NCBI GenBank assembly: GCA_024137785.1
Contig: JAHRHZ010000289.1
Span: 23,625,512-23,689,511, forward strand
Source of the DNA: Ginglymostoma cirratum
Taxonomy: Eukaryota
Length of the DNA stretch: 64,000 bases
Direction of reading: 5' to 3'
Of this stretch, positions 11,420-56,373 are shown piece after piece. Positions within the stretch are counted from its first letter, which is position 1. Every line of letters starts with the position of its first letter. The notes under the pieces are model-generated. The model was not told the DNA's origin, did not search any database, and was given only the letters and a program-made list of their open reading frames with translations. Made by a program: the position numbers and the translations under genes.

Positions 11420-11548
11420 CAGACTGACAGGCTGATATTTCTGAAGAAGGGTCCAGACCCGAAACGTCAGCCTTCCTGCTCCTCTGATGCTGCTTGGCCT
11501 GCTGTGTTTATCCAGCTCTACACCTTGTTATTTCAGACTGACAGGCTG
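11420..11548 (+). mobile_element. Penelope-like terminal insert (family 1) with 15-bp TSD
   Basis: TSD cagactgacaggctg at 11420-11434 and 11534-11548; body 'ctgaagaagggtccagacccgaaacgtcagccttcctgctcctctgatgctgcttggcc'. Confidence 0.85.
11441..11468 (+). ncRNA. Minimal hammerhead ribozyme core
   Basis: CUGAAGA-A-GGGU(CCAG)ACCC-GAAA-C-GUC. Core boxes are intact and stem III is the palindrome ACGU; stem I is very weak. Confidence 0.6.
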
Positions 11549-13789
11549 CCCGGTTTTCCTCTAGGAAGGCCTATGAGACTATGTGACAATCAAGGACGGC
11601 AGAGGAACGATTGAGAGACTGCAGCTTGGGAGAAGACTGTTGGGAGTATCCGGGAGGAGAGAGGATAAAGGCACATCCATCAAGGAGATCAGGATGGGGT
11701 TGTGTGGGGGAATTCACAGGTTGGGAGGGCATGGTGAGTTGGGATATTGGGCCAGGGAAGATATTGCAAGGAGTGGACATTAGGAGTCGCATCAGATGAC
11801 AGGGACAGGGAGTGAGGCCAGAGTGCCCAATTACCAAGGAGTTTAGCAAGGTAGCTTGTTGGGGCTGTGAGGAGTACACCTGCACCTCGTGGTTAAGTAA
11901 TGTTGTAAATACTTGTTCCATTCAAAACTTCTTGCCTCTCTCCAGCTGCTGGCTTGCCTGAGGCCTGAAAAATGAACATACTTAAATAACTTCTGGAAAT
12001 GGTTGGTCATTTATGCCCCCTCCCCATTTCAGCTCCATTAAAACTAGCGGGTTGGTGGGTTCAAGGGCGGGTTAGGTTTAAGTTTGAAATGTTATACATT
12101 GTAACTTCTTTGCCAAAATAAACCCACTGGTTTACCTATTCAGTGACTTAATTTCCCTTGGTTTTCCTGGTTGTTAATATGTTGGTATAAATACCCTTTT
12201 GTTATTTTTTTAACCCAATCCCTAATACCATTTAAGAGCAATTTGTTAACTATTTTAAACAGGTACTAAAGAAACTTTATTTGAATGCATTACTCAATGT
12301 CCTAGCACAGTAAATTAAACCTGTAAGCACAACAAAGTCATCACAAAATACCTGCATTGGTGTATTTTAATGCTCCTTGGTTCTCCTAACCTTTTTTTGA
12401 AAATATATTCACCTTATTAATTGCTTCCATCATAATGTGAGGAAAAAGGTTCTTCAATGAAAATAGAATCTTGAACTCGATTCCAATTCTGCTAGGGTGG
12501 CAAGAATAACACTTTCATTTTCTCCTAAGTATATTGGTTTTCCATGAAATGGGGTCAGGCATACTCTGCTCACATCCTGACATGGGTGTGGACTCAATGC
12601 TGTTTGCAGTTTAATACTTATGGTAAATATCATAAAGGTATGCACATGGTCTGGAACTTTACCACAAGAACAGAAATTGAAAATTATTCAACGCTGCTGC
12701 CAATCTAGTGGGAGATCTTATTTTGCAGGCAATGCATTTAGAAATCCTGGCTGTAATTTCCCCCTTTTTATGAAATGAATGGATAAAAATTACAATCCAA
12801 GCACGTATTCCCCTGCAAGCACGGTATCCCAGTTGGATCTCACTTAAGCATGAACAAAGGAGAGTCTCAATTCTTCAGAATTTTCCATCCAGGAGTTCCA
12901 TGCCAGAAGTGCAAATTTATAAAATGACAATCTCACTCAGCAAGGCCATTAAGATGGCTTATGTGCGGAAAGGAAATATCACACTGCTGCAGTCACAGTC
13001 GTGTTTGTGAGACCGAAAAGGAAGCACATTATGAAGTTACTGTCAAGGCAAGTTTATTTTGTAGTTTAGTACTCAATACCTAGAATGGGCCTACTTGTTT
13101 TTAAAATTCAGAACCTAAAGTAGGGAATGGTTATAGTTTCCCAGCACAAGGCAAAGTCTTGTCTTTGTCTCTTTCTGAGGCAAATATCAAAGTAGAAATA
13201 AATTATCTTAGACAAATTCTGCAAAATATTTCTACAAAAGTCAAATTGGTTGGCAGCTCTGATCTCATTACCGAATAGCATTGCAGAAATTTAATGACCA
13301 GATAAAGATTTCTATATAACGCGTGTAAATTATGGAGTGTTCCGTTCAAATTACGTTCTGTGATTATCTGAGCATATGAGCAAGCATACAATTAAACTTA
13401 TGTTTCCACTATGCTTGGTGACTATGAGGATAGTCAATGCATTTTCATTAAAATGGCAAAGGACTTATAATTTTTTGCTTTTAGCAATTTAAAAATATTT
13501 AAAAGTATATTGACTTTTTTTTAGGCAAGATCAGTTCCTGGTACATACAGCATCTATTATGCTACTATGCTGGAGTTGTTTGAAAATTTACACGAAAGCA
13601 GATGCTCATGTTGTAGTGCCAAGTCCCATATTTCCATCATTCCTCTCCTCTTCCTAGCTTCATGACCCAGTGTGTGGACTTTAAAATAGTTTTCCAAACC
13701 ATCCTAAATTAATATTCAGCTTCTGTTGTTCTAAAAATCCGACAACTCATTCTTTTCCTCCTCTTCTTCCCTATCAAAAACAGCTACTA

Positions 13790-14315
13790 AACTTCTGCTC
13801 TATCACTGAGGTTCATAACTTCAGTTGCCTCAGCCCCATGTTTGGAAATATTCACCTTACACCTCTTTGTCTCAACCTCACTTTCCTAGTCATAGAGTCA
13901 TACAGCATGGAAACAGTCCCTTTCAAACTCGTCTCCAACAACTTACCATCAAAGTCAGACTCACAGGTCTATAGTTCCCAGGCTTCTCCTTATAACCTTT
14001 CGTAAATAAAGATACAACATTTGCCACCCTCTAGTCCTCTGGCACCTCACCTGTGGTTATAGATGACACAAATATCTCTGCTGGGGTCCCTCAATTTCTA
14101 CCCTAACTTCCCACAACGTCCTGGGATACACTTGATGAGGTCCCAGAGATTCCTCCAACCTATCTCCCTTCAAGAGACTCCTTAAAACCTACCCTGGTCT
14201 TATCTGATCTAATGTCTCCTAATGCGGCTGAGTGTCATGTTTTGTTTTATAACACTTCTGTGAAATGCTTTGAGATATTTCAATACATTAACAATGCTAT
14301 ACAAGTTGTTGTTGC
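13790..14315 (+). mobile_element. L2-like LINE 3' end interrupted by a CR1 fragment
   Basis: 'ttcagttgcctcagcccc...' resumes after the insert as 'ttcaagagactccttaaaacctac...ctgtgaaatgctttgagat...gctatacaagttgttgttg'. Confidence 0.6.
13889..14150 (-). mobile_element. CR1/HER1 LINE, internally deleted (3' tail joined to RT-proximal segment)
   Basis: 13889-13930 matches the tail at 15515-15560; 13933-14150 is homologous to 16672-16885. Confidence 0.8.
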
Positions 14316-15514
14316 ATGAAATTAGCATTCTGTGCCAGTTATACCTACGCCTAGACATCTGTTACTGATTTAACAGCAACAACAGTGGAAACCAGTTTAT
14401 ATCCAAAGGGATCTGAGAATTTGAATTAAAGGAGTTCCAAATAAAGGTGTGTAATATATGTAACATTAGAGTAGAGATGAGTCATTTCTTTGCATGCTAA
14501 TTTCCCAAACTGCACTAAGTCAGCATTGGGGTGATTTTGAGCAAGGAGTTAAATGTTTCCACATAAGTAGAAAGGTCTCTCTAGCATGTCCCCTAGTAGC
14601 TCATTTCAGAGTTGTATAAGTTTGCAAACATAGGCTGCAAGGACTCATCATGGGTAGGCAGGAGAACATAACTGAAAATAAAAGGGAAAGTTTTAGACTC
14701 AGCAAAAAGAAATGTTGGTCAATTAATATTCTTTGTTTGGTTCCTCCTTCTTCACTGCTTCTCAGCCATCTGAGACCTTAGACATCTTCTGCTGCCAAAA
14801 AATCTTTGGTCTGTTCTTTGTCAGAATCTGAATGTCTTAAATGATTCTCTTATTAAGTCAGCTAAATATTGCATGGCTTAAGGACAGGAAAACGATTGTT
14901 TGCACAGTGTTGAGTTCTTTATTGCTCTGAAGAGACCTAGCTCCAATAAAAAATGTTTCACTCTAATTCCTAAAGGTGTACAAGCTTGTTTTGGCTCTTT
15001 TGAACTGTACTTTAAAGTACTTGAAGCCTGAGGGAGATGAGCTAAGGCATCTCACACCACAGCAGCTAAACAGTCTATTGGGGGAAGGGATGTCATACTG
15101 ATCCTACTGCAAAAGATCTAAATACTCATTAGCAACCAGCTGAAAAAAAGATCAAAGACATGTAAAAGGCCGGCATGATCCCTTGGGGGTAATAATCTGC
15201 AGCCAGCAGCAGTCATTCCTGCTTCCTGTTGTACACCCACTTCACTGCAATATGGTTCACAACCACAGTACTGAACTAAAACACACACAAAAGAAAACAA
15301 AAAGGCTGCTGGCTCTGCCTCTCTCCAGCTTGGCAAAACCATGGAAAACATCTGATTAATATTTTTGTGCATGCTGGGATTGCCACTTTTTCTCATTTTG
15401 TCTTCAAAAAAGCTATGGGAGGATTGGGGTCTGAAATGTGGAAAATACCGTGACGTTCATCAAACAGTGAGACTGCACCATTAGGGGATGTAGGAAGTTC
15501 AGGATGGATTTCAC

Positions 15515-17255
15515 TCACAGAGTTATACAGCATGGAAGTAGACCCTTCATTCCAACTAGTCCATGCCACCATGTTCCCAAACTAAACTAGTCCCACCTGC
15601 CTGTGTTTGGCTCATGTCCCTCCAAACCTTTCCTTTTCATGAACTTATCCAAATGTCATTTAAATGTTGTAATTGTACCGACATTCACCGCTTCCTCTGG
15701 TAGTTCATTCCACACACAAACCACTCTCTGTGTAAAAAGTTGCCCCTCATGTTCTTTTTAAATCTTTCTCCTCTATAATTAAAAATATGCCCCCTAGTTT
15801 TGAACTCCCCTACCCTAGGGAAAAGACTCTTACTATTCATCCTGTCTAAGCCCCTCATGATTTTTTGACCTCAATAAGGTCACCCCTCAACCTCTTAAGC
15901 TCCAGTGGAAAATGTCCCAGCCTTGCAGTCTATTTTTATAACTCAAACTCTACATTCAAGGCACATCCTGGTAAATCTTTTCTGAGCCCACTCTAGTTTA
16001 CTAATATCCTTCCTACAACAGAGTGACCAGAACTGCACATAATACTCCAGATGAGGCCTCACCAACATCCAGTACAACCTCAACATGACATCCCAACTCC
16101 TATACTCAAAGGTTGAGCGATGAAGCCAAGCATGCTAAATGCCTCCTTAAACACCCTGTCTACCTGTGATGCAAATTTCTAAGAATTATGTACCTGAACC
16201 CGTGGGTCTCTATGTTCTACAACACTGGGCCCAACAATGAACTGTATAACTCCTGTCCTTGTTTGTATTACCAAAATGCAATTATCTAAATTAAACTCCG
16301 CCAGCCACTCCTCAGCCCATTGACCCAATTGATCAAGATCTCTCTGTAATCTTAGATAACCCCCACCACCACCCTCTGTCTCCGCCCATAAAGCCAACTT
16401 TGTATCCATTTGACAAGCTCACTCTGAATCCCATGTGATCTAACTTTACTACTTAGTCTACCATGTGGAACCTTGTTAAATGATTTACTACAATCCAAGT
16501 AGATAATGTCTTGGACTGTAGTAAATCTGCCCTCTTCAAACTTTTTGGTTGCTTCATTAAAAAAATCAATCAAGTTTGTGAGAAATGACTTTCCTTGCAT
16601 AAAACCATGCTGACTATCCTTAATCAATCCTTGCCTTTCCAGATGCATGTAAATCCTATTCTTCAGAATCATCTCCAACAACTTAGCCACCACCAAAGTC
16701 AGTCTCACAGGTCTATAGTTTCCAGGTTTTTCCTTACAGCCTTTCGTAAACAATGGCACAACATTAGCCACCCTCCTGTACATCACTTGTGTTTATAGAT
16801 GACACAAGTATTTCTGCTTGGGTCCCCGCAATTTCCTCCCTAACGTCCCACAATGTCCTGGGATACACTTGATTAGGTCCTGGGACTGAAAGACCTTTAT
16901 GTTTTCTAAGACCTCCAGCACTTCCTCATCTGTAAAACAAAAATATCTATTTCCCTGAGTTCTCTAGCCTCTATTTCTTTCTTAACAGTACAAACTGATG
17001 CAAAATATTCATTTAATATTTCTCCCATCTCCTGTGGTTCAACACAAAGATGACCTCGTTGCTCTTTAAGGGGTCCTACGCTCTCTCTAGTTGTTCTCTT
17101 GCTCTTAATGTATTTGTAGAATCTTTTCGGATTATCTTAAACATTACGTGTCAAGGCTATCTCATATCGCCTCTTTGCCTTCCTGACTTCTTTGTTAAGA
17201 ATGCCCCTACACTCTTTATACTCTTCAAGGGATTCAGTTGATCCCAGTTGCCTAT
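15515..17255 (-). mobile_element. CR1-clade LINE (HER1-like), 5'-truncated, decayed RT
   Basis: ORF 16352-16786 'VANVVPLFTKGCKEKPGNYRPVRLT...SQHGFMQGKSFLTNLIDFF...YLDCSKSFNKVPH...RQRVVVG' and 16179-16409 'LQRDLDQLGQWAEEW' are canonical CR1 ORF2 motifs. Confidence 0.95.
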
Positions 17256-17357
17256 ATAACATGATGTCAAATATACTAAAAACCATAGATGCCAGTACTT
17301 GACAGAGGAGTGCTACAAACATTTTCTGTTTGCAGTTTATTGAAGTTGATTAGTAGA

Positions 17358-17544
17358 AAAAATGGAAGCCAGGCGAAAATAGTGAAAGGTGCGCGTTGCC
17401 ACGCCAATGCCCCACCCACCCCATCCCATGACCACCACTTGCCCCAAGTGTAACAGAGCCTGCCGAAGCCATATTGATCTGTACTGCCACTTGTGGACTC
17501 ATCTTGAGAGTGTAAGAGAGTCATCCTCGTCAGCAAGGGACTGC

Positions 17545-17577: not shown

Positions 17578-17579
<2 letters not shown>

Positions 17580-22149: not shown

Positions 22150-22682
22150 ACCTAAAAGGGTGAATTTATGAAGACAGGTTGCAAATACTCATCCTGTATT
22201 CCTTTGTTCACAGGAAATTAGATGGTGATCTAATTGAGGTGTTTGCAATGATCAATGATTTGATAGAGAATCTATTTTCCAGTTCTGAGGACCTGAAATG
22301 TTAAATTTGATTTCCCTTCACAGATGCCTCCAGACCTGCTGAGCTTTTCCAGCAACTTCTGTTTTTGACCGTATTTTCTTCGGTGGAAGAATCCAAAACA
22401 GGGAGATAAATCTTTTAAATTACAGCTACACTGTTGAGAGGTAATATAGGAATGCACTTCTTCACATAGAGGATGGTGTAACTCAGAACATGAAGTGCTG
22501 TAGAAGCTAAGCCAATTGAAATATTCAAAATGAAATTGATGAATCTTTTATTCAATAATAGCATTAAGGATTGTGTAAAGAAGGCAGCTATTAGGAGATA
22601 CGATACAAATTAGCCTTGACCCAATTGACTAGTAGAATAGGCCTTTGTCATTGAATGGCCTTTTCCTATCCCAATGTTCCAT
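22150..22682 (+). mobile_element. Old CR1 3' end with nested Penelope-like fragment (about 22275-22370)
   Basis: 'tatgaagacaggttg...gatggtgatctaattgaggtgtttgcaatg' (LSYEERL...GDLIEVFK-like); nested 'cacagatgcctccagacctgctgagcttttccagcaacttctgtttttg'. Confidence 0.7.
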
Positions 22683-29738: not shown

Positions 29739-29996
29739 ACCTTAACCTCACTAGAGATAACAAGGTGTAGAGCTGGATGAACACAGCAGTCCAAACAGTA
29801 TCAGAGGAGCAGTAAGGCTGACGTTTCAGGCCTAGACCCTTCTTCAGAAAATGAAGAAGGGTCTAGGCCCAAAACGTCAGCTTTCTTGCTCCTCTGATGC
29901 TGCTTGGCCTGCTGTGTTCATCCAGTCTATGCCTTGTTATCTCAGATTCTCCAGCATCTGCAGTTCCTACTATCTCTGTAACACCTTAACCTCACT
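29739..29996. mobile_element. Penelope-like palindromic insert (family 1) with 14-bp TSD
   Basis: Inverted arms of about 95 bp meet at 'cccttcttcagaaaatgaagaaggg'; TSD accttaacctcact at 29739-29752 and 29983-29996. Confidence 0.88.
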
Positions 29997-34114: not shown

Positions 34115-34218
34115 CAAAACAGCAAAACAGAAATTGCTGAAAACTCAGCTGGTCTGGAAATATCTGTGGAAAGAAAACAAAGTTAAGGTTTTGTGTCCAG
34201 TGACCCTTCTTCAGAACT
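34115..34218 (-). mobile_element. Penelope-like terminal fragment (family 2) with decayed hammerhead
   Basis: Minus strand agtt-CTGAAGA-A-GGGTC-actg-GACaC-aAAA-ccTT-aact. Confidence 0.7.
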
Positions 34219-34900: not shown

Positions 34901-36925
34901 TCATTCGTTTTTCTTTCTAAGGGTGTGCCATTGTCCAACAAATGCTGTTGGCAATTAAGTTTTTGATATGGGGATACACAATGGTATAACATGGTTTGAA
35001 AGCTATCTGCCGTAGACAATGTTCAGTTCACTGTTTGCTCAAGTTATTATTACATATTGTTATGTTTGCTTTCTCACTTCAAACAGTAATGGTGCTCCTT
35101 TCAAAAAAAGGGTCACTTTGTGTTAGAATACAAATTACTAAGACAGGCTCATATTCATTTAGACTGACTAGCTATTTATGTTGTCTGGCTGATGTAGCAC
35201 AATCTATGACCAAGGGCTCCACATCTGCAGCTGCCTATTTTACCAATATCTAGAGATTGGATCTGCGACCGGATTATCCCGTAACAGTAAAATTGGTGAT
35301 ATACACCATAACATTTACTATCCAATGTGCTGATCTTGCTGCCCATAAATTCATGAAGTGAATTAGAAGTGATGCAGCAGATGGCTTATGTTAACCAAAT
35401 GTAACCCAGGAACTAGAATGTTTTTTAAAAGGAATTTTAACTTGTGGTGCTGGTTTCGACATGTCCCTGACTGGATATGACAGTACCATTCACATTTTGT
35501 AATCTTGAAACTGCTCTGGTCATCTCCTCAGGGATTTGAAATCATAGCATTGTTTCAAATCTTTTGGGGACATGGGGGTATTCCTCTGTGACCACAGAAA
35601 TCAATAAAGACTTCTAGATTTTGAGCAAGTATAAGATTATGTAAGCACATAGCTCTGCTCACTGGTGTAAAACATGTCAGGTTAACGATGATGATTTCAT
35701 GATCAATCGCTCATCAGGAATCAGTAACTGTATGTTAGTTTATTTAAAACAGTATTGTACATTCCAAATTATTAAGACATTGCAGCAGATCAACTGATTT
35801 TTCTGTTTGCAGCTTGCAAACACAAAGGAGACCAACTGTCCATCTAGAGTTGCAACATTGTATACACACAGCAGATGGAGCTTTTAAGGTGAAAGATGCA
35901 AAACAACATGACCCTCCTTTGCAAAAGCAAGTTTGACTAATTACAATATCAAGTGAGCCAGAATAATTTGCTTATGCTAATATTTTGTTCCAGATTAGCC
36001 ACTGACTAACCTCATTCCTCAACAGCTTCCAGGTCATTTTGACACTTCCAGTTCCACACCCTGGGTTCTTCTAATTCTGTCAAAGTTTTAACTTTCTGTT
36101 GGTCCAGTGATTGTTTGGTGCCTCTACACCCTCCTTCAGTCATAAAGCATCATTGCTAGAATTCATTTTTGCAAGGGCTGTTTCATGAGTCTTTTGAAGC
36201 TTTTTGTTGTGTGTGTTCTCTATCTCCAGCCGGTTTTTTGCTGATCAGTCATTTTCTCCAGTACTGCTCTGAGTTTAAATGATGCTTCTGTAGCTGTTTC
36301 TGCTGAGAAGATCTGCTTTACTTGTGAGTTGCTCCAAACCTTCCTGTAAACTGCCAATTGTTTAACTAAATTGATGCTACTGAGCTTGTAGTTCATCCTG
36401 TTTCCTTTCTTTCTCTTTCGGCTCTTCATTCATCTTTGAAGGCTGAGCACAGGTTATCCCTTAAAGACTTAATCTTCTCATTCTCAAGTTTCGATTTAGT
36501 TGTTCAGCTTTTTCCTTTTCAACTTTCATTTTTCTCGTCAGCAATTCAGAAGTGTTCCATTCTTCTTTCATATTTGGTTCTTCAAGAATTTCTTGAATAG
36601 TCTGCTGCTGTTTCTGTCGTGTCTCTGATGTTTGACTAATTCCATGCATTTTGACCATTGTAAGGTCACAGCATGCTGCTTTCTATAATGTTGAACATTT
36701 GCAGTATCTGGCTGGGTTAATTAAACTATTGATCCTGCATGTGGAATTGGTGAACCATTGTATGCTGAAAATTTTATATTTATAGGTTTCATCATGGATT
36801 CCCAAATCAATTATAACAAGCATGGGGCTGGATGAACACAGCAGGTCAAGCAGCATCATAGGAGCAGGAAAACTTGACGTTTCGGGCCTAAACCCTTCAT
36901 CAGAAAATCTTTTTCTGATGAAGGG

Positions 36926-37325
36926 NNNNNNNNNNNNNNNNNNNNNNNNNNNNNNNNNNNNNNNNNNNNNNNNNNNNNNNNNNNNNNNNNNNNNNNNNNN
37001 NNNNNNNNNNNNNNNNNNNNNNNNNNNNNNNNNNNNNNNNNNNNNNNNNNNNNNNNNNNNNNNNNNNNNNNNNNNNNNNNNNNNNNNNNNNNNNNNNNNN
37101 NNNNNNNNNNNNNNNNNNNNNNNNNNNNNNNNNNNNNNNNNNNNNNNNNNNNNNNNNNNNNNNNNNNNNNNNNNNNNNNNNNNNNNNNNNNNNNNNNNNN
37201 NNNNNNNNNNNNNNNNNNNNNNNNNNNNNNNNNNNNNNNNNNNNNNNNNNNNNNNNNNNNNNNNNNNNNNNNNNNNNNNNNNNNNNNNNNNNNNNNNNNN
37301 NNNNNNNNNNNNNNNNNNNNNNNNN
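36926..37325. other. Assembly gap (400 N)
   Basis: Run of N. Confidence 1.
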
Positions 37326-37350
37326 AAACCCTTCATCAGAAAATCTTTTT

Positions 37351-37378
37351 CTGATGAAGGGTTTAGGCCCGAAACGTC
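37351..37378 (+). ncRNA. Minimal hammerhead ribozyme core
   Basis: CUGAUGA-A-GGG(uuuagg)CCC-GAAA-C-GUC with a 3-bp stem I (uuu/aag); mirror copy on the minus strand at 36876-36903. Confidence 0.65.
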
Positions 37379-38936
37379 AAGTTTTCCTGCTCCTATGATG
37401 CTGCTTGACCTGCTGTGTTCATCCAGCCCCATGCTTGTTATCTCGGATTCTCCAGCATCTGCAGTACCTTTTATCCCAAATCAATTGTTTTTTTTTGAAT
37501 CCACGGAAATAGTAAATTGGCAATTGGACGGTGTCAATCTTAGCCAATAATATATAATCACCAGTTTTCTGAGGACAAATTAACTGAATTTTTACAAACA
37601 CTTCAGGTGGTGTGTGAAAAGGATTTTTTCAATACAATTGACAGAGTGAAACTTGTGCTCACTACACTTTGTTTCATTGTGTACGTCACCAGGTTCTGGT
37701 TTGTGAAGAACTTCATGTGTACATTCCTGGCAAGATATGCCATTGCCTTATTGTTGCTGTAAGATACTCCATTTATATGGCTTGTTTGAATCAGTGCATG
37801 GCTTTTTATTGCTACATTAACCTTTGCTTCAATATATTGTCTCTGCCAATTGTGTTCTCTGCCACATGGCCTACAAAATTGATCACATACTTAGCATTTC
37901 ACTGGTGCATTCAGAAGACCACGCCTTTTCTTACATGTCTTGCAGTGTTTGGTTATTCTAGTGACTGTGTCAACCATCGTGTTTGTACTTAGGACCTGTA
38001 TGCTTTACTAGCCTGTGAGGACAGCTTCGTACTTACATATAACTTTTCAATGGTATAAGTATTTGGTTTGTCTCACAACTCCTTCTGGAAAGCTTCCAGG
38101 AGAAGTAGATGTGATCATCATATCAACAATTCTGTTTGCTGGCTCTCAATCTGAAAAATCACAAAATTAGTCCTTTTATCTGTGCCTGCTTATTAAGTGC
38201 TCTGTGGATTCCATTGGCTTATGTTTGAATGATGTGAATACTAGTCGATGAATATAGACCTTTAGTTTGATTCTGAATTGCTATCTTATTGTGGTTCATA
38301 TTGTTGAGGATCTTTTAGCTCCATGACTATTAATCCTGATGTGTTGCGTCTGTATAGAACTTTGTTCTGATTAATAAAGAAATCTTATTGGCTTGCTTTT
38401 CTGTGTTAGATATACCCAAATCTAGAAACCATTGCTCTTAAATTTAAAGAATGTAAACATTTTGTTAGGAGATCTGCTGTGTCCCAGTTGAAATCAGGGT
38501 ATTCTCAGGATATTTTCCAATATACTTTTGACCTTCCCTTGTTTGCTATTGACCCATCACACACCAGCAGGCTGTGTTTTCAATATACTCCAACACTAGT
38601 AACAAACAAATGCATTGAGGGTTGTTTCATGTACTTTAGCACAGTTTAATACTTTTGACTATGTCTTCTACTTGTAGTTTAACATGCTTGCTGACTATTC
38701 AATTGTGATAGGTTTCATTGGTACAACATTTTCTACTGCTGATCACCATGTTAAAATTAATGATAATGGTCTAGCAGTCAATTGCTGGTTAGGGATTGAG
38801 CAACTGTTGGTTAGTTTATTGGTAACAGTAAAACCAAGCTATGAAGCAGACATTACAATAAATCAATTGATTTCTGTGTGTGCAGGTTACAAATCCAGAG
38901 AAGACTTACTGTTCAGGAAGAACATTGTATATACAC

Positions 38937-39058
38937 ACGTATGGAGTCCTTAAACCTCTTAAAGGCAATGTACAGGGAATATAAAGCACAATAAGAACGT
39001 ATGGAGTCCTTAAACCTCTTAAAGGCAATGTACAGGGAATATAAAGCACAATAAGAAC
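38937..39058 (+). repeat. Perfect 60-bp tandem duplication
   Basis: acgtatggagtccttaaacctcttaaaggcaatgtacagggaatataaagcacaataaga x2, then 'ac'. Confidence 0.97.
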
Positions 39059-39599
39059 CCACTCTCAGTTCAGATGGTTTCAGAAATGTACCATAGCATA
39101 AGTTACATCATTGGTCATGGATGTTATAATTTCCTACAAAATCTTCACGAGAACAATAGTGCACAATTCAAAGAGTTTTCAAAAATTTCTGGACAAGTGT
39201 TTTTATCCAAATTTCCCAAACTATGGACTGAATTGATTCACACTTACAAATGTTAGTGTTTGAATGTCATTATATGGAGAATATTATGTGTCCCTGTGTC
39301 ATATAGCAAAAACTATCACTTCGGTTCAATGTAACTTGTATCAAATCAAATGACATTTTTCATGGCACATGACACCTTCCCAGATTGGCACTTTACTCAC
39401 TTGCTCTCATATAATGCTGAAAAGTTGAAAAATTAACCAATGTAGGAGCTTATTTTACATAGAGTACAACATGCACTGATGAGAACTGCACCAAGTTATG
39501 GAGAGGATACTACACACAATGGCGTGAATTCTGGACCAAAGTGGTAATTTACTGGTCAATCAGAAGATAAGTTAGAAAAAAATAGAAGAATCAGATGAC

Positions 39600-39770
39600 A
39601 AACTTCCTTCTGACGCTTATGAGCCTAACAATTCAGAAAATGATGCATTTTCTGAAAGCCCTGGTAGAGAGTGGAAACCAAATTTCCTTCTGACACATTT
39701 GAGTCTAACAGTACAGAAAATGATGAAGAAAGTGACTGATTTACTGATAGAGTTGGTAGAGAGTGGAAAC
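39600..39770 (+). repeat. Diverged tandem duplication (about 80-90 bp unit)
   Basis: 'aaacttccttctgac...gagcctaaca...cagaaaatgatg...tggtagagagtggaaac' occurs twice. Confidence 0.85.
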
Positions 39771-46819: not shown

Positions 46820-48850
46820 GGATTATAAAATAGTAAGGGTTTCTATAGATATTTTTAAAAAGGGACAGAGTGAGTACTAGAAAGTGAGTCTGGAGAATTA
46901 ATAATGGAAAATAAACGGATGACAAATGAGCTGGAAGTGGCATCCTAACTTAGACATACATTACTGTTCCTTCAGTGTCACCGGGTGAAAATCATGGAAC
47001 TTCCAAATGGCATTGTGGGTCTATGTGCACCAAACAGACCGCAGTGGTTCAAGAAGGCAGCACACCATCACCTTCTCAAGGGTAACTCAGGGTGGGAAAT
47101 AACTGCTGGTCCAGCCGTTGATGCCTATGTCTCATGAATGAATATTATAAAACATTGAACAGATATTTCCAACAGTCTTCACCGTACAGAATAGGTAACA
47201 CACCAGAAATAGCTACTGATCAATATATGGGAGGCAGAAAGGAACTCAAGAAAATTGCAATCACTAGTTTTGGGCAAATTGTTGGAGCTGTGGAGCACCA
47301 TCCTGGAGTCTTAAAAGAAAGGGCTTGGTGAGATAGTTGATGTGTTGGTTTCAATTATCCAAAAATCCCTCAATTCAAGGAAGATTCTTTAGATTGTAAA
47401 GTAGTGAATGTATCTCCTTTACGCAAAAAGATGAGACAGAAAGCCAGAAAGTGCAGGCCAGTCAGCTGAACACCTGTCACTGGAAAGCTGTTAAAAACTA
47501 TTACTAAAGACGTTAACAGATGACAAAGTTCAAGGCAATTAGGAAGAGTTAACATGGATTTATGAGAGGTAAATTCCTTTTAACCAATTTATGGGAGTTC
47601 TTTAAGTAACATATGCTATGGATAAAGGGGGTCTGGCAGACGTACTGTACTTAGATTGCTAAGGTGTAACAACAAGGATTACTACGAAAAATAAATGTTC
47701 ATGCTGTTTTATTATGTCATAGATTTCAGACTAGACAGGCCTGTACTTTTGTACTAAAGCAATACGTTTTGTAATGCAATGTAACTGTCTTAAAGGTACA
47801 GGCCAGTCTGATATGGAATCTATACCATTAAACAACATGTAGCATAGGGGTAACATATTATTGGGGTAGAATAATGGATAGCCAACAGGAAAAAAGAACA
47901 GGCATAATTGGATCATTTTCTGATTGGCAAGATTTAACGAGTGATGTCCCCTAGGGACCAGTGCTGGGGCCTCAAAATTTACAACATATGTACATAACTT
48001 AGATGAAGGGACCAAAGGTATTGTTGCTAATTTTGCTGATGACATAAAAATAGGTAGGAAAGTAAGCTGTGAAAACAAACTAAAGGAGTGACAAAGGGAT
48101 AGAAATAGGTTAAGTGAGTAGACAAGGATTTCGCAAATTTTGTACACTGTTGGAAAATGTGAAATTGTCCACTTTGGCAGGAAAAATTAAAAAAATGTAT
48201 TATCTCAATGGTGAGAGATTGCAATGCTCTGATATGCAAAGGAATCTTGGTGATCTAGTGCACCAATGGTAAACAGGGTTAATGTGCTGGTACAGCAAGT
48301 AATTCAGAAAGCAAATCAAATGTTCTTAATTATTCAGAGGTGAAGGAGTAGAAAATTAGGGAGGTTATGCTTCAGTTGTACAGAGGATAAGACTATCTCT
48401 GGAGTACTGTGTTTAGCTTTGATCTCCTTATGTAAGGATAGATGCAAATGTGTGAATGCAGTTCAGAGAAGGTTTACTAACTAATACTGAAATGGATGTT
48501 TCATCTTCTGAAGAAAGGTTGGACAGGCTAGGATTGGATCTGTTGAAATTTGAAAGAGTAAGAGGTGGCGCGTTTAAAACATACAAGATGCTGAGGTGAC
48601 TTGACAGGATGCACTTGGAAAGGACGATTCCTCTTGTAGGGGAATTTAGAACCAGAGGTCACTGTTTCAAAGTAAAGGGTTGACCATTAAGATACAGATA
48701 AAGAGATTTGTTTTTTCCTCATAAAGAATCATGAGTCTTTGAAAATCTCTTCCTCGAAAGGCAGTGGAAGCAGAGTCCTTGAATATTTTAAAGGCCGGAA
48801 TAGATGCATTCTTGATAAGCAAAGAGGTATAAGTGGTAGGCAGAAATGTA
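46820..48850 (+). mobile_element. CR1-clade LINE, decayed, with nested LINE tail (about 46935-47145)
   Basis: 'DEGTKGIVANFADDIKIG' (FADD at 48032-48043), 'gatgtcccctagggaccagtgctggggcctc' (GVPQGSVLGP-like) and a CR1 3' UTR. The nested piece matches the reverse complement of 63300-63520. Confidence 0.92.
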
Positions 48851-48865: not shown

Positions 48866-48988
48866 CTCACCTGATGAAGGAGCAGCGCTACAAAAGCTTG
48901 TGATTTCAAATAAACCCGTTGGACTTTAATCTAGTGTCATGTAACTTCTGACTTTGTCTACGCCAATCCAACATTGGCATCTCCACAC
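48866..48988 (+). mobile_element. Penelope-like terminal fragment (family 3) with hammerhead-type head
   Basis: tcac-CTGATGA-A-GGAGC-agc-GCTaC-aAAA-GC-TT-gtga, followed by 'caaataaacccgttggacttta'. Confidence 0.75.
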
Positions 48989-49177: not shown

Positions 49178-50833
49178 GACCGTTTTCTGTTTAGTCTGAG
49201 ATTTCTCTAACCAGCCTGGATGGGCAGAAGGAATAGGGGTGATCAACATTTAGTGATCCTCCTGGTGTGCAATCCAGTCAACCAGGCTGCAGGGCACACC
49301 TCACCCAGTGCCCTTTAAATATAGCTTCAAATCCGGAAGGTGCTGCGGGAGGTGAGAGAGAGAATATCTGGCCTATCCTCAGCAAAGTTTTACTTGGATA
49401 AAAACACATGCATATGCAATGAGCTGAGAACCACATGATGGTGTAAGGAATGTTGATCCACTCCTTAGTCAAAGTGACTCCCATGTCCAAGCCTGTTTAG
49501 GCCAAATAGTGAGAAGATTCCAGCCTGTTTTGTGAATATAAACTCATTTAGACTGTATAATTTGAAGAGCAATTTATACTTCTGTTTCAAGATTTGTATT
49601 TCCTTAGGATTCAGCTGTTATCTGCCACTCAAAAACAGGTTGAGAAGAAAATAATCTCCCAGTTTAACTGACAACGGTGCAAGATTATAAAATGATATAC
49701 CAATGATATATTTAGTTATGATAATTAGATTTGAATGGCTTTTGCCTGTGACATCATTAACTAGCAGTCTCTTCTGCAAGCTGGTTGCATTCTCTGGACT
49801 GATGCCAGAGAATATGTTTAACAGGAATCTTCTTTAAACAAACTGCTGCCTGTAGCCTTTGTTGAGATAGTCAGAGGCTTTAAACATGTAATGGCCAAGC
49901 ATTGACATAACAGCAGTCTAATTACTGAGAAGTTATTGCTCCAAATATATTTGTTTAAAAAACGAGTTTATGGAAGGCTTAACCTAGCTCGAGAGAAAGG
50001 AAATGGGTTAAAGGAAAGAAAAGCAAGCTTTGTTGCTCTCAGCATGCCCTCACCTCCTAGCCAAGCTAAACACGTTTTTCTTTCTCTCATTCAATCTGTT
50101 TTCAAAAATCTTTATTTTCCATAATATAATCTTTAAATAGTATTATTAGCAATAAGATGTTAATAGAAATAAGGATCACTTGAATTCTTACTTTAACATT
50201 TAATTTATGCATATTGTATTTTTCTTCCTTGTCAAAGTTTTTCCCTGATGTAGGTCTATTTTCTTGACCAAGAAAGTTAGATCAACTTGCTCCCAGTCCT
50301 CTGGCAAAGACGTTCAAAGGTTGAGAGAAAGTGAACTTGAAAATTTGTTCTGAAAGTTTTCCCTTTGACCTTTGGGAGGAACCCGATCCTCTTGATTTCC
50401 CTCCCGCTATGATATGAACAAGAACAAGAATTCAGTGCACAGGGAGTTCAGAGCATGTATTCAGTCATTCCACACTGCAAGTAAACCTGACATCTCACAA
50501 ACACAGCAGTAATACAAGGCTGTCAAAAAAAAAACAAAGGAACATGGAAAGATAGGAAAAATACAGTGAGGTAAGTTGCAGACCCATGCCAGGAACTTGA
50601 AATGATAATCTAACTTAACAACTCCGATAGAATGCTGCTTTGCTGATCTTTCATTGCATGAAATCTTAAATTGATGTCCCAATTGTTTCTATGGCTCAGG
50701 CGGGTATTAAAGATCTAATCACACACTACGAGGCAGAGCGTGTTCTACTAGGGTCCAGCCAACATTCCTGCCTCAAATCAAAACAATTAGAAACTGTTTA
50801 ACAAATCCTCTATCTGTGGTGTTTGCAGAATCT

Positions 50834-51143
50834 GCACAGTGGCTCAGCGGTTAGCACTGCTGCCTCACAGTGCCAGGGACCCAGGTTTGATTCCACCCTT
50901 GGGCGACTGTCTGTGTGGAGTTTGCACATTCTCCCTGTGTCTGTGTGGGTTTCCTCCGGGTGCTCTGGTTTCATCCTACGGTCCAAAGATGTGCAGGCTA
51001 GGTGGACTGGCCATGCTAAATTGCCTGTCATGTTCAGGGATGTGTAGATGAGGTGGATTTTAGGGGGATGGGTCTGTGTGGGATGCTCTGAGAGTCAGTT
51101 TGGGCTGAAGGGCCTGTTTCCACACTGTAGGGATTCTATGATC
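50834..51143 (+). mobile_element. HE1-type V-SINE, full length
   Basis: A-box 'gtggctcagcggttagcac', B-box 'ggtttgattcc', V-domain, and tail 'gggcctgtttccacactgtagggattctatg'. Confidence 0.93.
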
Positions 51144-53229
51144 TTGTTGTGCAGAAAATGGTTGCCATGTTCCACCTGCATGGCAGTAACCACCATACAT
51201 CATAAGCAGCTTGTTATCTTTGGAGAGCTTTGTTAGGTATGATAATCATAAGAATATTTTTCTTGCATAGGACCAGAGTACACCACTGGGGTCTATGTGC
51301 TTATTTCCGACATTTGAGAAATACCGCACACTACACTTTCTTTCAGTTCCCCAATCAATTTGTCTGCCAAATATCTGTCTAGCTCTCTAGCTCACCCAGG
51401 AAAATACAATCCTGGAACAAGATAAAAAGAAACAGGCTTTGTTTTAATGCTGAAGTTCTAAAAAAGTCCAGAATAGAAACAGATTGGCTGACATGATTCT
51501 GAGTTACGGATCTGAAGTATTTCTTCAAATGGAAGAAAAATAGAAATAAACACTGGGTCAGCATTTACAACAAATTAAAACAATCTGGAAACAACATCGA
51601 ATTCAATTGTCAGTGAAATGTAAAGGACAGTTAATTGGCAATGACAAGATAGCCTCCAGAATATTTCAGTATGGCTCTGCACTTAAAAGGCAACAAGACA
51701 AAACACAGCATTATGGCCCATATTTGGTGGTTGGAATAGACGTGAGCAGTGAATTGGCCATGCTCAGTAGTCATATTGGGTTGAAATTGATAGCATCTGA
51801 AAACAGACGTGTAGATCACAATGAATGATTGACCCTTGCCCATTCAATGTTATGTCATCTTCATGTAGCCTATTCATCTGAATGATTAGTGCATGTAACC
51901 AATACCAATCATGCAGTTCATTGGTTACTAACATCAGTAGAAGGCCCAAAATCAAAACTACCAAACATCACTTAAAACATGCTCAACTGAACATAAAATG
52001 TGGTTCATAAAAGATCCCAAAGATTGTAAGATCTGTGATCAGGACTCTCAGGTTGTCGAACTGATGGTAGTGCAGCATGCAGAGTCAGTCAGTTCACTCT
52101 TCCCTGCTTCTTACAATATCCAGTATTTTATAATCAATGAACAAACAATTGTTCATTTCACTTACAATGCATGTTTTAAGTGGTGATAGGGAGTCATGAT
52201 TTTTGGCTGTCTTTTGACTGGCTCAGCCAATGAACTGCACAGTTAGCTCTATCCCCGTGCAACAATTATTCAAATCAGCAGTCTACACGAAGTTAGCATA
52301 ACACTGAAAGATCCAGGGTTATTCCTACATCATGGTCCTAAAATTAATTTTCAGAGGCTATGCAATTTATCACACTATGCCGACCAATTATGATTGGTGT
52401 ATTCCAAATTTTTCCAGAGTCCTGCATACATTCAGGTTCATTATGAAATTCCTGATTTGCTTCTTCACGACTAGACTGAAGTATGGTAAACTCTTATACT
52501 TCTATTTCAGAGTAAGATAGCGACTTGATGTGACAATTGGAAACATTATAACTTTTAAGAAATCTCAGCTTTTTTACCAATTTGACTGGCCCTTGCCATT
52601 TCCACAATTTCCCACATCACTAAGGAGGACAAGAACCAGATTAAATGGACTCCATACATTTACTTATTGCATTGTCACAATAATAATTCAAAATCTTCAC
52701 TAAATTCACTATCTCCAAGCCTGACTCAAGACTTTTTTTTTGACTTGGTTGTAGACAGATATTCTTTTTAAATGACTCAAATGGTAGCATGAAGCCTTTT
52801 AGCAATGCTGTGTAAGGATTGACAGTTAATTGGAACAGGAATTGATGATGTAGCCCTTTCTGCTATGGAATGCATTTCAATATAGCCAACACACATATAG
52901 GTGACATTTTGTACTGAAACATTTATGCAAAAGTCCATTTACTCCATCCTTTATAAAGCAGGGCATTAGAAAGTTAATCTTGGCTGACAGCCGGAAGCAA
53001 AATCTCCCTTCTCTGCAGTGTCTGTTCCACCTTTCAGTCATGTTTCAGAGCCACAAAGACACTGCGACCACAGTCCACATATCCCTTACAGACTCATATA
53101 AAGATGACCAAATCCTGTGCCCACCCTGAATAGATGCATTAGTTCACCAAAAAACCTCTGAAACAAGACATCATAAATCCAAAAACTTTGCAACAGCAGA
53201 TTTTAGTTGTTGGCACCTTACCAGAAGAT

Positions 53230-53395
53230 GGGGATTTATTAACTCAGCTGGCTGAGTGGTTAGTTTACAATACAGAGTGACACCAATAGTTCAATTTCTG
53301 CAACCAGCTGATGTTACCATGAAGGTCCCTCCCTCTCAACTTCAGGTTAATCATGCTCTCTTTAAATGAAAGTGTGGAACTATGGTGACTTCACT
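53230..53395 (+). mobile_element. tRNA-derived SINE (family B)
   Basis: 'ctcagctggctgagtgg...gttcaatttctgcaaccagctgatgttaccatgaagg...ctatggtgactt'; reverse complement of the 28905-29120 type. Confidence 0.7.
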
Positions 53396-54544
53396 CATCT
53401 TTACCAGCATGGCACATGGGCATCTTTTTAACCCATGCTAACGGTGATCCCCACATAGCTGCAGTTAGTTTTGTTTTAGTTAACCTGTTTACACAGCTCT
53501 GGTGATGGTAGGGCTTGAACCCTGATCCTCTCCAGCTGCAGTTCACTTGATGATTTAATGCAGAGAAATCAGAAGACATGGATTTTATTAGGAAGAATGA
53601 GATGAGACAACACAAACACAATGGCACAATTTTAAAGTACATTAAGGTTTGGATGGATGTGGGGTATAGGCACATGGCAGAACAAGTTGAGATGGTTGTT
53701 AAAAGGCCTTGGATTGGTAAAAGCACCAGAGGCGAAAAGAAACTTTTAAAAAATTACTGCGACATCAGGTTAAGCACTTATATAAGATTGTAGAATCATT
53801 ATGTAAAAATCATTATATTGGTGATCCATTAGCTGTGTGTTCAACAAAGTCTTCTTTTTATCAAGATCATGAAAAGAACAACCGGGAGAGTGAGGTCAGT
53901 GTTGAGAGGTTCTGAGTTTTCTATACAAACCCCAGCCCCTTCCAACAATTAAACACCCTTCAAAAATTGGGAATCATATGTTACACAACTCTTTATTTGT
54001 GACACTAACCATTCAAAAGAAATGGTGCCTTGTAGACGTGACAATTTACTTCAACACATCTTCGCCAGCAACCACTCCCAGAAGATCTTCGGTAACACTG
54101 CTGCAGTCCTCACCTCATGTGTTCTACCAAATGTTCAGTGTGGTCAGAACAGCATGAAGCAAGCAGGACCTAGTGTACTGAATCTGTGAAAACCTCTGCA
54201 AATTATTGCTTGTCCCTCTTAAGGAATCCCTACCACCTACCTATTTTTTCATTCTTTAAAATGCACTGCTTTCATTAATGTGTATTATGACAGTCTTTCC
54301 ATTGCTGATTTGTTTACAAACACAAAATACGATGACACAATTTGCAGGAAAGCACGTCAACATTTGGTTATTGTTATGGAACTAATGATTCAAATCCTAC
54401 TGACCCCTTTTTTTTCCTGTTCTGCCCTCTAAAGGTTTGTGAATTTCTTTTTCCTCTAAGGTATTCTTTTTGTGCCATTATGTTGCAACAGGAATTTCTT
54501 CCCTGACAAATCATCTCCCTTCTTTATTAAACAAGTGTTTAAGT

Positions 54545-54645
54545 ACTGAAGAAGGGTCACGAGAGTCAAATCATAAACTCTTCTTTCTCTCTACAGATGC
54601 TGCAGATCTGCTGAGTTTTCCAGCAAATTCTGTTTTTGTTATTTA
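54545..54645 (+). mobile_element. Penelope-like terminal fragment (family 2)
   Basis: 'ctgaagaagggtcac...cagatgctgcagatctgctgagttttccagcaaattctgtttttg'. Confidence 0.7.
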
Positions 54646-55489
54646 AGGCAATGTCTCTGTTTCTGTTTGCAATACAACTCTTCAGCTAGCTACAACAGAA
54701 TAGAGCCAGATACTCAGGAAACATTCTTGCAGAAGTGCTACTGGGACATGTTCAAAGCTACCAGTTCACATAAAGCCTGCTGACTGCTATGCTTTTGCTG
54801 ATCTCTGCTATAACCGCTAAATAACATGCTTCCCTTTAATGCTATTCTCTATTATAGAAGCCTTTTTATTTCAGGAAGGTGACTTGACATGATGGAAGGA
54901 ATTGCAGATTTTCCTTTTCTCTGCTTCCTCTCTTTCTCTGTTTTGTTTTAATTGCTGAAGACCAACAAATATCAGTGATTCACGTACTTGTGAAGTCTAA
55001 CCACAAATACCATTAAACACTTACCTGGCCTTATAGATTGACATTGTGTTGTAACTCATATCTGCCTCCACACTCAATCATCAAAGCAGTTTCACTATTA
55101 AACATAAATTTGATCGATTTCCAGTTAAACAAATCAATAACCCTCAACCCATTCATTTCCTCTAACCTTTTTAGGTGCTTGATGATTAAGTAAATAAATT
55201 CATTACCATTTTATTTGAGAACTTGGAGCTGTACTATTGAAGTAAAAAGGAAAGAATTTGATCAATGACAATTACAGTAACTAAGTTAATTAATTAAGAG
55301 TTCTCATCGTTTTCATCAAAAGTTCAAGCAGTCGAATGTAAATCTTATGATGGCTAAATTGTGACCATCACTAGGTCCTTGAAATGAGTTCCATATTTAC
55401 AATATTTGCTGCCTTGCTTTAGTATTAAAGTAATGTTTTTGCTTCTCCAGTAATTTTACAGATTTGTTTCAAGAAGTAGCTGAGCAATT

Positions 55490-55690
55490 AGGGCCAGTTA
55501 ATCTCTGATCTGTGCTGAGTGAGCTGATGTTAGAGTGGTACGAAGTATTACAATGGCCTCAGTGCTTTGCAGTTAAGAAATAAAAATTGTTAGAGTTCCA
55601 GCTTCCAAACAGAATTCAGCGATGACTTCTGCTGTAGGCTAACATCTGTGAATCTTATAGGCAGACGGATTCAGACCTCCTGTAGATGGC
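55490..55690 (+). mobile_element. Ancient SINE fragment (AmnSINE2-like, tentative)
   Basis: 'tctgtgctgagtgagctgat...tacaatggcctcagtgc' resembles a recalled old gnathostome SINE; heavily diverged. Confidence 0.35.
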
Positions 55691-56249
55691 AGCTGGCATT
55701 AATGCCGGAAATGTCCTAAGGAGTTTTCCTCATCACTGTAAAAGGCATTGTACCTCCACAAGGTCTCTGGGTAAGATTTCTGCTCTTACCATCCTCTGCA
55801 TACAGATGTGTTCAACAAAGTTTATGCCGTTCACTCACAAGACGGTAGATATGATATTACTAAGACTGTTTGCTGTAATTTTTATAAATTCGTAGAAACT
55901 CCAAAAGCATTCATGAACAGGATTTAATAATCTTGCACCAAGTTTGTAATGTTAAATCAGAGGAGCTCCCAAAATATTTCCTGACATTTCTGTCATGGTA
56001 ACATGGCAGGATATCTCGTCGAACATAGCAACAGAAGTCTTGAGAAGAAAAGGGAAGGGGATAAAATAGCTGGGAAAAATTAGCAAGCAGAAAGGAGAGC
56101 CTGTCTTGAAGAAACAAAATATTTAGTCAAATCTTGTTTACCCATAAAGATACAGTATTATGATATAAGTCATATTGCCTGTGGCATTATCATGACACAA
56201 AATGATTCCCTAGCTCTTTCTCCCTGGTGAACAGAAATCTGTCAAACTT

Positions 56250-56373
56250 CCCTATGGAAATAACAAGGTGTGGAACTGGATGAACACAGCAGGCCAAGCA
56301 GCATCACAGGAGCAGGAAAGCTTGACGTTTCGGGCCTAGACCCTTCATCAGAAAATTTTAACCCTATGGAAAT
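56250..56373 (-). mobile_element. Penelope-like terminal insert (family 1) with 12-bp TSD
   Basis: TSD ccctatggaaat at 56250-56261 and 56362-56373; body homologous to 36813-36907. Confidence 0.88.
56324..56351 (-). ncRNA. Minimal hammerhead ribozyme core
   Basis: Minus strand CUGAUGA-A-GGG(ucuagg)CCC-GAAA-C-GUC, stem I uuu/aag. Confidence 0.65.

What the first reader, a model, noticed from the sequence alone, without database searches (positions are those of the whole stretch)
11420..56373. Three families of ~100-bp Penelope-type inserts, each headed by a minimal hammerhead ribozyme with covarying stems
Seen: about 10 short inserts, and wherever the head is legible it begins a few nt before CTGA[T/A]GA. 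Family 1 (11441, 29850 pair, 36900/37351, 56351): stem II GGG/CCC, stem III ACGU, stem I uu/aa. Family 2 (8540, 34214, 54546): stem II GGGUC/GACCC, stem I aguu/aacu. Family 3 (48871): stem II GGAGC/GCU[a]C, stem III AAGCUU, stem I ucac/guga. The helices differ in sequence between families but stay paired around the same core boxes, and all have an extra A after CUGANGA. Established: Penelope-like retroelements carry minimal type-I hammerheads in their pseudo-LTRs, with palindromic stem III thought to need dimerisation. Inference: shark DNA carries roughly one such ribozyme relic per 6 kb, as ORF-less terminal units that often have their own TSDs. They could be mobilised as a non-autonomous ribozyme-headed short element.
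Basis: partly seen in the sequence, partly recalled or inferred. Interest (0 to 1): 0.7.

Follow-up and report, generated by a model that had tools for sequence, protein, structure and literature searches.

The report
Penelope stubs record start and cut
These short repeats are the ribozyme-bearing end pieces of a known kind of jumping gene (Penelope-like retrotransposons), not a separate mini-element; most begin at one spot that is likely the capped start of the element's RNA, and a minority in the youngest family begin at the ribozyme's predicted cut site, which would be a fossil trace of it cutting in the animal.

Summary
The inserts are real: 13 units in 10 insertions, but only 5 keep an intact hammerhead core (chance: 0.03). 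All three families are terminal repeats of Penelope-like elements with RT and GIY-YIG ORFs. In family 1 the unit also opens full-length copies. Minimal hammerheads, solo copies, inverted pairs and tails are all in print. A separate non-autonomous element is not supported: every large subfamily has long and short copies.

Not found in print in my searches: (1) 5' ends pile up at the ribozyme's 5' edge, about 30 nt below a TATA-like box, and in family 1 usually follow an extra G, as expected for run-off at a capped RNA start; (2) young family-1 copies show a smaller class starting at the predicted cut site (5 of 19 host-joined ends, p=0.001), not seen in the older families. No RNA-level proof was obtained, and cleavage is untested. 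The scan's notes report both readings earlier on other DNA, in this genome and others.

The parts
8431..8615 (.). Family-2 inverted pair (minus arm starts at +21 relative to C3 and carries the long tail; plus arm has C3 at 8543, core broken); 11-bp TSD at 8420-8430 and 8616-8626
   Evidence: TSD read by eye
9091..9181 (-).
   Evidence: 30.9 bits, E 1e-7
11435..11533 (+). Family-1 solo unit (older subfamily), intact core, C3 at 11441, 5' end at -4, weak stem I; predicted cut 11468/11469; 15-bp TSD at 11420-11434 and 11534-11548
22288..22367 (+).
29753..29982 (.). Family-1 head-to-head inverted pair: minus arm with intact core (C3 29847) and short tail, plus arm with broken core and long tail; 14-bp TSD at 29739-29752 and 29983-29996
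34122..34218 (-). Family-2 solo unit, C3 34214, 5' end at -5, G12 and stem III mutated
36813..37473 (.). Young family-1 inverted pair, both cores intact (C3 36903- and 37351+), one insertion with 13-bp TSD at 36800-36812 and 37474-37486
36926..37325 (.). 400-N assembly gap at the hairpin centre; 36890-36925 equals 37326-37361, so the partial heads at 36915+ and 37339- are probably artefactual duplicates
48867..48987 (+). Family-3 solo unit, C3 48871, 5' end at -4, G12 and stem II mutated
54542..54640 (+). Family-2 solo unit, C3 54546, core and stem II decayed
56262..56361 (-). Family-1 solo unit, intact core, C3 56351; predicted cut 56324/56323; 12-bp TSD at 56250-56261 and 56362-56373

Best explanation
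The inserts are the terminal repeat (hammerhead plus 30-40-nt tail) of Neptune-type Penelope-like retrotransposons, and they are likely run-off copies of the first 100-130 nt of the element's own RNA, pasted in by the element's enzyme and dead on arrival. Shown: the unit ends ORF-bearing copies in all three families and also opens full-length family-1 copies; short copies have two 3' end points, 9-18-bp TSDs and often an inverted partner; their 5' ends pile up at the 5' strand of stem I; long copies carry a TATA-like box about 30 nt upstream of that point. Inferred: RNA polymerase II starts there, so the hammerhead is the first 32-36 nt of the RNA; reverse transcription starts internally at the tail (shown in vitro for the anole element, PMC11167929), reaches the cap after about 100-130 nt and adds the base read as an extra G; the cDNA is then joined to the target (solo unit), to a cDNA primed from the other strand (inverted pair), or jumps to another template position (long or composite copy). 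Inferred, weaker (about 0.55): a small share of RNAs is cut by the ribozyme, giving copies that start at +28.
For: Link to ORFs: 20 of 20 RT-selected copies carry the F1 unit downstream at 96-100%; RVT_1 and GIY-YIG in one frame with a CxxxxCxxC linker; F2 unit follows a diverged Neptune-like 3' end in 14 of 15 loci and F3 in 15 of 15 (each set includes the query's own locus). Unit at the 5' end joined to the ORF start in 9 of 30 loci; 809 exact tail-to-ORF junctions genome-wide. 5' ends within -10..+9 of C3: F1 42 of 65, F2 36 of 54 unselected units, F3 14 of 29 selected on downstream sequence; 16 of 79 young junction-selected copies end at -6..-2 against 45 spread over +2..+116 (p 4e-10); 18 of 74 internal joints enter a second unit exactly at its head. 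TATA-like box at -36..-34 in 37 of 40 F1, -36..-33 in 14 of 22 F2, -37 in 13 of 29 F3 long copies, initiator-like A at -4, -4 and -7 (38, 13, 21 copies); parent identity in short copies fades at -4/-5 in F1 and F2 but at -7 in F3. G before the end: 7 of 8 ends at -7..-4 against 5 of 38 internal ends (Fisher 1e-4), 9 of 14 in a second F1 set, 12 of 18 at internal joints; an extra G is read as the mRNA cap for L1 insertions (PMC11702581, passage). Cut-site class: of 91 hand-tallied ends between +16 and +40, 18 fall in +18..+27, 54 in +28..+35, 6 in +36..+40; 5 of 19 host-joined ends lie exactly at +28 (p 0.001), none at the AAA at +21..+23; further +28 ends in L257, L266, L311, L335. RNA reads step up threefold at the same 5' edge and strand-switch joints cluster there.
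Against: No RNA-level start or cut was seen: no place where many molecules begin or end in a poly(A) run with 43,884 laid reads, and both strands are equally covered. The first extra-G test, on the base before the initiator A only, gave 2 of 17 (F1), 4 of 19 (F2), 5 of 8 (F3); the end-defined test was chosen afterwards, and stays non-significant for F2 (7 of 16, 2 of 4) and host-joined F3 (3 of 8). In inverted and composite copies the G can come from the partner by microhomology; host-joined F1 alone is 8 of 11. The initiator pattern is loose (it also matches at -30 in 36 of 40 F1 copies), and copies of one family are not independent. The +28 class is absent from F2 (0 of 151 ends at +30) and F3 (0 of 61 at +29) and not in excess among the 79 junction-selected ends (3, 3, 0 in the three bins); ends at +33..+35 are as common as at +28..+30 in the tally. 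Predicted monomer folds do not form stem I. The Drosophila Penelope promoter is reported as internal and TATA-less (PMC2377424, passages).
Confidence: 0.72

Rival explanations
1. The units are an independent non-autonomous, ribozyme-headed short element (SINE- or retrozyme-like) that is transcribed on its own and copied by Penelope enzymes in trans.
For: Very high copy number with own TSDs; fixed 5' end; a few head-to-tail junctions (L014; one tail joined to +28); internally deleted unit-ORF start-3'UTR-unit copies are common (36 of 74 joints) and keep a promoter; retrozymes are proposed to derive from pLTRs (bioRxiv 10.64898/2026.07.22.740005).
Against: All clusters of 11 or more copies mix long and short members; short copies equal the ORF-linked unit and lack the TATA-like box; tandem units 1 of 122; 5' ends mostly not at the cut site, as a circular-RNA cycle would need. 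Templates from promoter-bearing truncated copies acting in trans cannot be excluded.
Confidence: 0.12
2. The units are ordinary 5'-truncated copies of the 3' end; the pile-ups come from RT stalling at RNA structure and from T-rich or A-rich microhomology during joining, with no transcription start or cleavage involved.
For: PLE insertions are known to be heavily 5'-truncated (PMC8557442, PMC4209133); many F1 ends sit in a T run (-3) and many inverted joints use microhomology; +27/+28 is a CpA step, labile to ordinary RNA breakage (own knowledge); ends at +33..+35 could be stalls below stem I.
Against: An RT moving 3' to 5' should stall at the 3' edge of a fold, not at its 5' edge; F2 and F3 heads are not T runs, yet pile up, with the family-specific shift; extra G; TATA-like box at a fixed distance in two lineages; full-length copies and internal joints end at the same point.
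Confidence: 0.13
3. Self-cleavage defines the unit: the ribozyme cuts the RNA and the short inserts are copies of the cleavage product.
For: A minor class of young F1 copies starts at +28.
Against: The 3' product would lack the CUGANGA box, yet most units include it; only 1 of 65 F1 and 2 of 54 F2 unselected ends lie within 5 nt of the cut; cleavage was not needed for insertion in vitro (PMC11167929).
Confidence: 0.03

Closest known systems
Minimal type-I hammerheads of metazoan PLE pseudo-LTRs (Cervera and De la Pena 2014, PMC4209133; parts 1-2 of 4 read, 2 of 3 supplementary files searched)
   Same: Core boxes, extra base between 9 and 10.1, G10.1-C11.1, palindromic 15.2-16.2, 4-bp stem I; mostly solo motifs from truncated elements; opposite-strand pairs; families with compensatory changes; reported in fish Neptune, Poseidon and Xena.
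   Different: No shark named in what I saw. About 1.6e5 intact cores by rough extrapolation against about 4,000 and 9,000 reported for coelacanth and Xenopus with another descriptor. The paper does not place the motif at the RNA start and states that in vivo evidence is absent.
EN+ Penelope-like elements, Neptune clade (Craig et al. 2021, PMC8557442; Arkhipova et al. 2013, PMC3846280; passages read)
   Same: Single ORF with RT, Zn-finger-like linker and C-terminal GIY-YIG; partial tandems; head-to-head inverted 5'-truncated copy; one-sided 30-40-bp tail; 8-10-bp or longer TSDs; a TATA plus initiator in a rotifer pLTR; solo pLTRs.
   Different: The passages do not describe a fixed 5' end at the ribozyme edge, an extra G, or ends at the cut site; hammerhead function is called unclear; head-to-head structures are ascribed to self-priming.
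Poseidon of Anolis carolinensis, PAc (Frangieh et al. 2024, PMC11167929; parts 1-2 of 4 read, supplements searched without hits)
   Same: Two internal RT start points bounding the tail; both target strands nicked and extended; hammerhead near the ORF start, protein-assisted and dispensable for insertion.
   Different: Different clade; there the ORF starts inside the ribozyme, here the long F1 ORF starts about 165 nt downstream (read by eye). No reads began at the cut site there; here genomic copies do.
Animal non-LTR retrozymes (PMC7229834, passages; bioRxiv 10.64898/2026.07.22.740005, parts 1-3 of 5)
   Same: Short ORF-less type-I hammerhead units related to PLE pLTRs; reported from one cartilaginous fish.
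   Different: Retrozymes are tandem arrays making circular RNA; these units are solo or inverted and share subfamilies with ORF-bearing copies.
Minus-strand strong-stop DNA of LTR retroelements (recalled, no call)
   Same: Priming a short way inside the RNA 5' end, run-off at the cap, then a jump via a terminal repeat.
   Different: Here priming is from nicked target DNA, and the short product is itself integrated.

Membership tests
EN+ Penelope-like element | RT and C-terminal GIY-YIG in one ORF | tested here: met
   F1: Pfam RVT_1 and GIY-YIG in L098, L100, L103 (RVT_1 passes its cut-off only in L098). F2 and F3: tblastn to the F1 protein; Pfam found no PLE domain in 3 decayed pieces.
EN+ Penelope-like element | Pseudo-LTR / partial tandem, inverted 5'-truncated copy, one-sided 30-40-bp tail | tested here: met
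   L253 and L267 partial tandems; L103, L105 inverted copies; two 3' end points in F1; window pairs at 29753 and 36813.
EN+ Penelope-like element | RT groups with PLE clades in a tree | not tested
   No reference PLE proteins were held.
Neptune clade | CX2-5CxxC linker between RT and endonuclease | tested here: met
   Present in F1, F2 and F3. It is shared with Nematis (PMC8557442), which was not excluded by a tree.
Minimal type-I hammerhead | CUGANGA, GAAA, UH core with stems I and II, extra base after A9, palindromic stem III | tested here: met
   Met for family majorities and 5 window copies; not met for the window's F2 and F3 copies. Rfam gave no hammerhead match.
Minimal type-I hammerhead | Compensatory changes in the stems | tested here: met
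   Among 181 F1+F2 heads (of 231): stem I pair 1 U-A/C-G, pair 3 U-G/G-C, stem II pair 2 G-C/A-U. These are three events between subfamilies, not independent copies; one older F1 subfamily has a U-C mismatch in stem I. No R-scape.
Minimal type-I hammerhead | Self-cleavage after NUH, as dimer or protein-assisted | tested here: inconclusive
   Indirect only: genomic ends at +28 in young F1; none in F2, F3; no RNA ends.
Non-LTR retrozyme | Tandem arrays with a hammerhead in each unit | tested here: not met
   1 tandem among 122 unselected units.
Non-LTR retrozyme | Abundant small circular RNA | not testable with these tools
   Only poly(A) reads and contigs were available.
Non-autonomous SINE-like element | Own lineage and own promoter, separate from the autonomous partner | tested here: not met
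   Subfamilies shared with long copies; TATA-like box lies outside the short unit. An internal promoter was not tested.

The most novel reading that the evidence does not exclude
Penelope-like elements place their hammerhead as the first 32-36 nt of a capped, TATA-driven RNA and copy it by a strong-stop-and-jump route; the genome holds on the order of a million run-off stubs of that step, and thousands of young copies starting at the scissile bond are direct fossil evidence that a minimal hammerhead cuts in vivo in a vertebrate germ line, removing the cap and leader from a fraction of the RNAs.
Probability: 0.45. Interest if true: 0.75.

Novelty: new member of a known kind. Interest (0 to 1): 0.52.

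Why it matters
How Penelope-like elements complete transposition, and what their hammerhead does, are open: the function is called unclear (PMC8557442), in vivo evidence was lacking (PMC4209133) and no RNA ends at the cut were found in the anole (PMC11167929). Insertion ends give two exact, testable positions: an RNA start at -4/-5 (F1, F2) or -7 (F3) and a cut at +28. A decapping cut so near the start would act on translation or template choice rather than on releasing unit-length RNA. The inserts in this window are themselves mostly dead relics.

Tried and rejected
Rfam: no hammerhead family matched; the miRNA-like hits are the inverted pairs. Two genome searches with only the downstream part of F1 returned no candidates because the words are too common. 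Laying contigs on 36500-37800 did not resolve the gap or show an empty allele among the joints listed (37 not shown). First extra-G test negative for F1 and F2. Apparent pile-ups at -247 (F1) and about -50 (F2, F3) are read as limits of homology to my reference subfamilies, not as ends. Pairing of the outer tail with the ribozyme core appears in F1 folds and is the commonest best window in F1 (39 of 115) and F3 (19 of 58), but is weak (about -6 kcal/mol) and absent in F2; kept as a lead only. A hand-picked alignment was not used for pair counts. Within-family pair counts mostly show neutral decay: G12 kept in 50 of 105 F2 and 34 of 57 F3 copies, no better than a loop CpG in F3. 29 of 60 scattered stretches read all N, so the unselected sample is 554 kb and may be biased. 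Papers not held: Lunse et al. 2016 (PMC5785218) and Arkhipova et al. 2017 (PMC5850863); they, one unsearched supplement of PMC4209133 and the preprint's supplements may bear on novelty. Passages of PMC12602865, PMC7353768, PMC8782182 and PMC6155905 added nothing specific.
Full report
Numbering. Positions are given relative to C3, the first base of CUGANGA (= 0). The predicted cut lies before +28 (F1), +30 (F2) and +29 (F3).

1. Observation. The heads are at the stated places. Profiles built from genome copies find 13 units in the window, and none in reversed sequence. A strict descriptor finds 5 intact cores against 0.03 expected; 8 in 292 kb of scattered DNA and 7 in 198 kb of neighbouring DNA against 0 in all shuffles. 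The 13 units are 10 insertions, three of them head-to-head pairs. The pair at 36813-37473 is one event cut by an assembly gap. All F2 and F3 copies in the window have broken cores, mostly by CpG decay of G12. Over 554 kb there is one unit per 3.6 kb and one intact core per 28 kb, roughly 1.2 million and 1.6e5 if extrapolated to 4.36 Gb; this is rough, since gaps are counted and 29 of 60 scattered stretches were unreadable.

2. What the units belong to. A search with an RT fragment found beside one unit gave young copies; 20 of 20 fetched carry the F1 unit downstream at 96-100%, two of them closer than normal. [quoted passage not shown] Upstream sequence of F2 and F3 copies led to older elements of the same build, followed by the F2 unit in 14 of 15 and the F3 unit in 15 of 15 loci; F3 proteins are only 23-34% identical to F1. 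The same unit opens full-length F1 copies and runs into the ORF start (9 of 30 loci), with 809 exact junctions genome-wide. So the unit is the terminal repeat of Neptune-type Penelope-like elements. TSDs of 9-18 bp were found for 26 of 64 solo and 15 of 23 inverted F1 events, 23 of 80 and 6 of 15 F2, 3 of 25 and 7 of 15 F3, against 2.3% of 389 random places.

3. The ribozyme. Subfamilies clustered on sequence downstream of the motif all show the minimal type-I layout. Between homologous F1 and F2 subfamilies three pairs change on both sides; F3 has different stems with the palindrome AGCU. After insertion the copies decay neutrally. Predicted folds of a natural F1 leader form stem II early but not stem I, and lose stem II once the tail is made, in line with published dimer or protein dependence (PMC4209133, PMC11167929; PMC6765202 passages). 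Inverted pairs put one motif in antisense and cannot serve as cis dimers (inference).

4. Where the copies start. Ends pile up at -10..+9 in all families (13 of 135 unselected units dropped for edge or gap). In 79 young copies chosen only by the tail-ORF junction (92 read, 13 dropped for N), 16 end at -6..-2. Of 74 copies that leave the ORF early, 36 jump to the 3' UTR, 18 enter a second unit at its head, 3 inside it, 7 further in the ORF, 10 elsewhere: footprints of template jumps. Long copies carry a TATA-like box 29-32 nt above an initiator-like A that is the outer edge of stem I, and the fade-out of parent identity shifts from -4/-5 to -7 in F3 as that A does. A G precedes such ends in 28 of 40 F1 cases over three sets, as for capped L1 templates (PMC11702581). 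My first test of this was negative, the effect is not significant in F2, and partner microhomology explains some cases. RNA reads show the same threefold step, which embedded copies would give anyway, and no direct start.

5. A second, smaller class. After chance sightings at +28 I searched for young F1 copies that end between +16 and +40: 1,663 matches, about 8,800 copies after correcting for the filter. In the first 100 (4 internal indels and 5 duplicates dropped) ends are 1.8 per nt over +18..+27, 6.8 over +28..+35 and 1.2 over +36..+40. Of 71 read with flanks, 21 are host-joined; 5 of the 19 between +18 and +40 start exactly at +28, and two more do so if read by their TSD. This mirrors the step-and-tail shape at the main end. 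It is not seen in the older F2 and F3 nor as an excess in the 79-copy set, and RT stalling, microhomology or breakage at a CpA are not excluded. It covers a few percent of copies at most (2 of 65 unselected F1 ends lie at +20..+45).

6. Mechanism. Shown: anatomy, end positions, TSDs, shared subfamilies. From the literature: internal RT starts bounding the tail and extension from both target strands (PMC11167929); transcription from the upstream pseudo-LTR (PMC2377424, PMC6765202). Inferred: a capped RNA begins at stem I; cDNA primed at the tail runs off after 100-130 nt; it is sealed as a solo stub, joined to a second cDNA as an inverted pair, or jumps and continues; stubs lack the TATA-like box and are dead; a minority of RNAs is cut at +28.

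7. Comparison and novelty. The motif, solo and opposite-strand copies, tail and inverted structure are in print (see Closest known systems). The fixed start at the ribozyme edge, the extra G and the cut-site class were not found in ten paper searches; two key papers were not held, and subscription papers and Repbase notes are not covered. After my reading was written down, the scan's own notes showed the same readings from other windows of this and other genomes; they are unchecked AI notes, not support.

8. Verdict. Interest rests on the mechanistic footprint: 0.52.

Noticed in passing
L097 (minus, near 4509); left neighbour stretch G000:C289:23525512-23625511 (minus, about 44.2 kb in): A fourth hammerhead family with an extra U after A9 and a longer stem II loop; three intact cores among all loci, none in the window.
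   Followed up: no
L343, L348, L346, L365, L290, L287 and others: Many internally deleted copies join the ORF start (often +240..+251) to the CT-rich 3' UTR, several at -118; they keep a promoter and could be a true non-autonomous derivative of about 500 bp, or a recurrent microhomology jump.
   Followed up: partly
window 36926-37325; many loci (L001, L003, L011, L012, L019, L258, L265): Assembly gaps sit at the centre of young inverted pairs, so these hairpins are a frequent cause of breaks and local duplications in this assembly.
   Followed up: partly
F2 unit, about +28..+55 (e.g. window 34160-34190, minus): F2 reads like a 3' splice site (branch-like TTAAC at the cut site, pyrimidine tract, CAG then ATG); F1 lacks the AG. 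Read by eye only.
   Followed up: no
L253, +2..+11 and +115..+126: The outer tail end is complementary to the ribozyme's 5' core in F1 and weakly in F3, a possible switch between RT-start fold and ribozyme fold.
   Followed up: partly
L253, L275 leader: Two short upstream ORFs (about 14 and 39 codons, read by eye) lie in the unit before the long ORF; a cut at +28 would remove the first start codon with the cap.
   Followed up: no
L384, L421 and listing: Several inverted joints are centred on the stem III palindrome, making a perfect hairpin there.
   Followed up: no
window 16352-16792 (minus), 13905-14143, 47006-47108, 10908-11222, 50834-51142: LINE RT fragment and other dispersed repeats; the resemblance to shark CR1/HER1 and HE1 repeats is recalled, not tested.
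   Followed up: no
window 38937-39056 and 39599-39770: Exact 60-bp tandem duplication and 80-92-bp spaced imperfect repeats.
   Followed up: no
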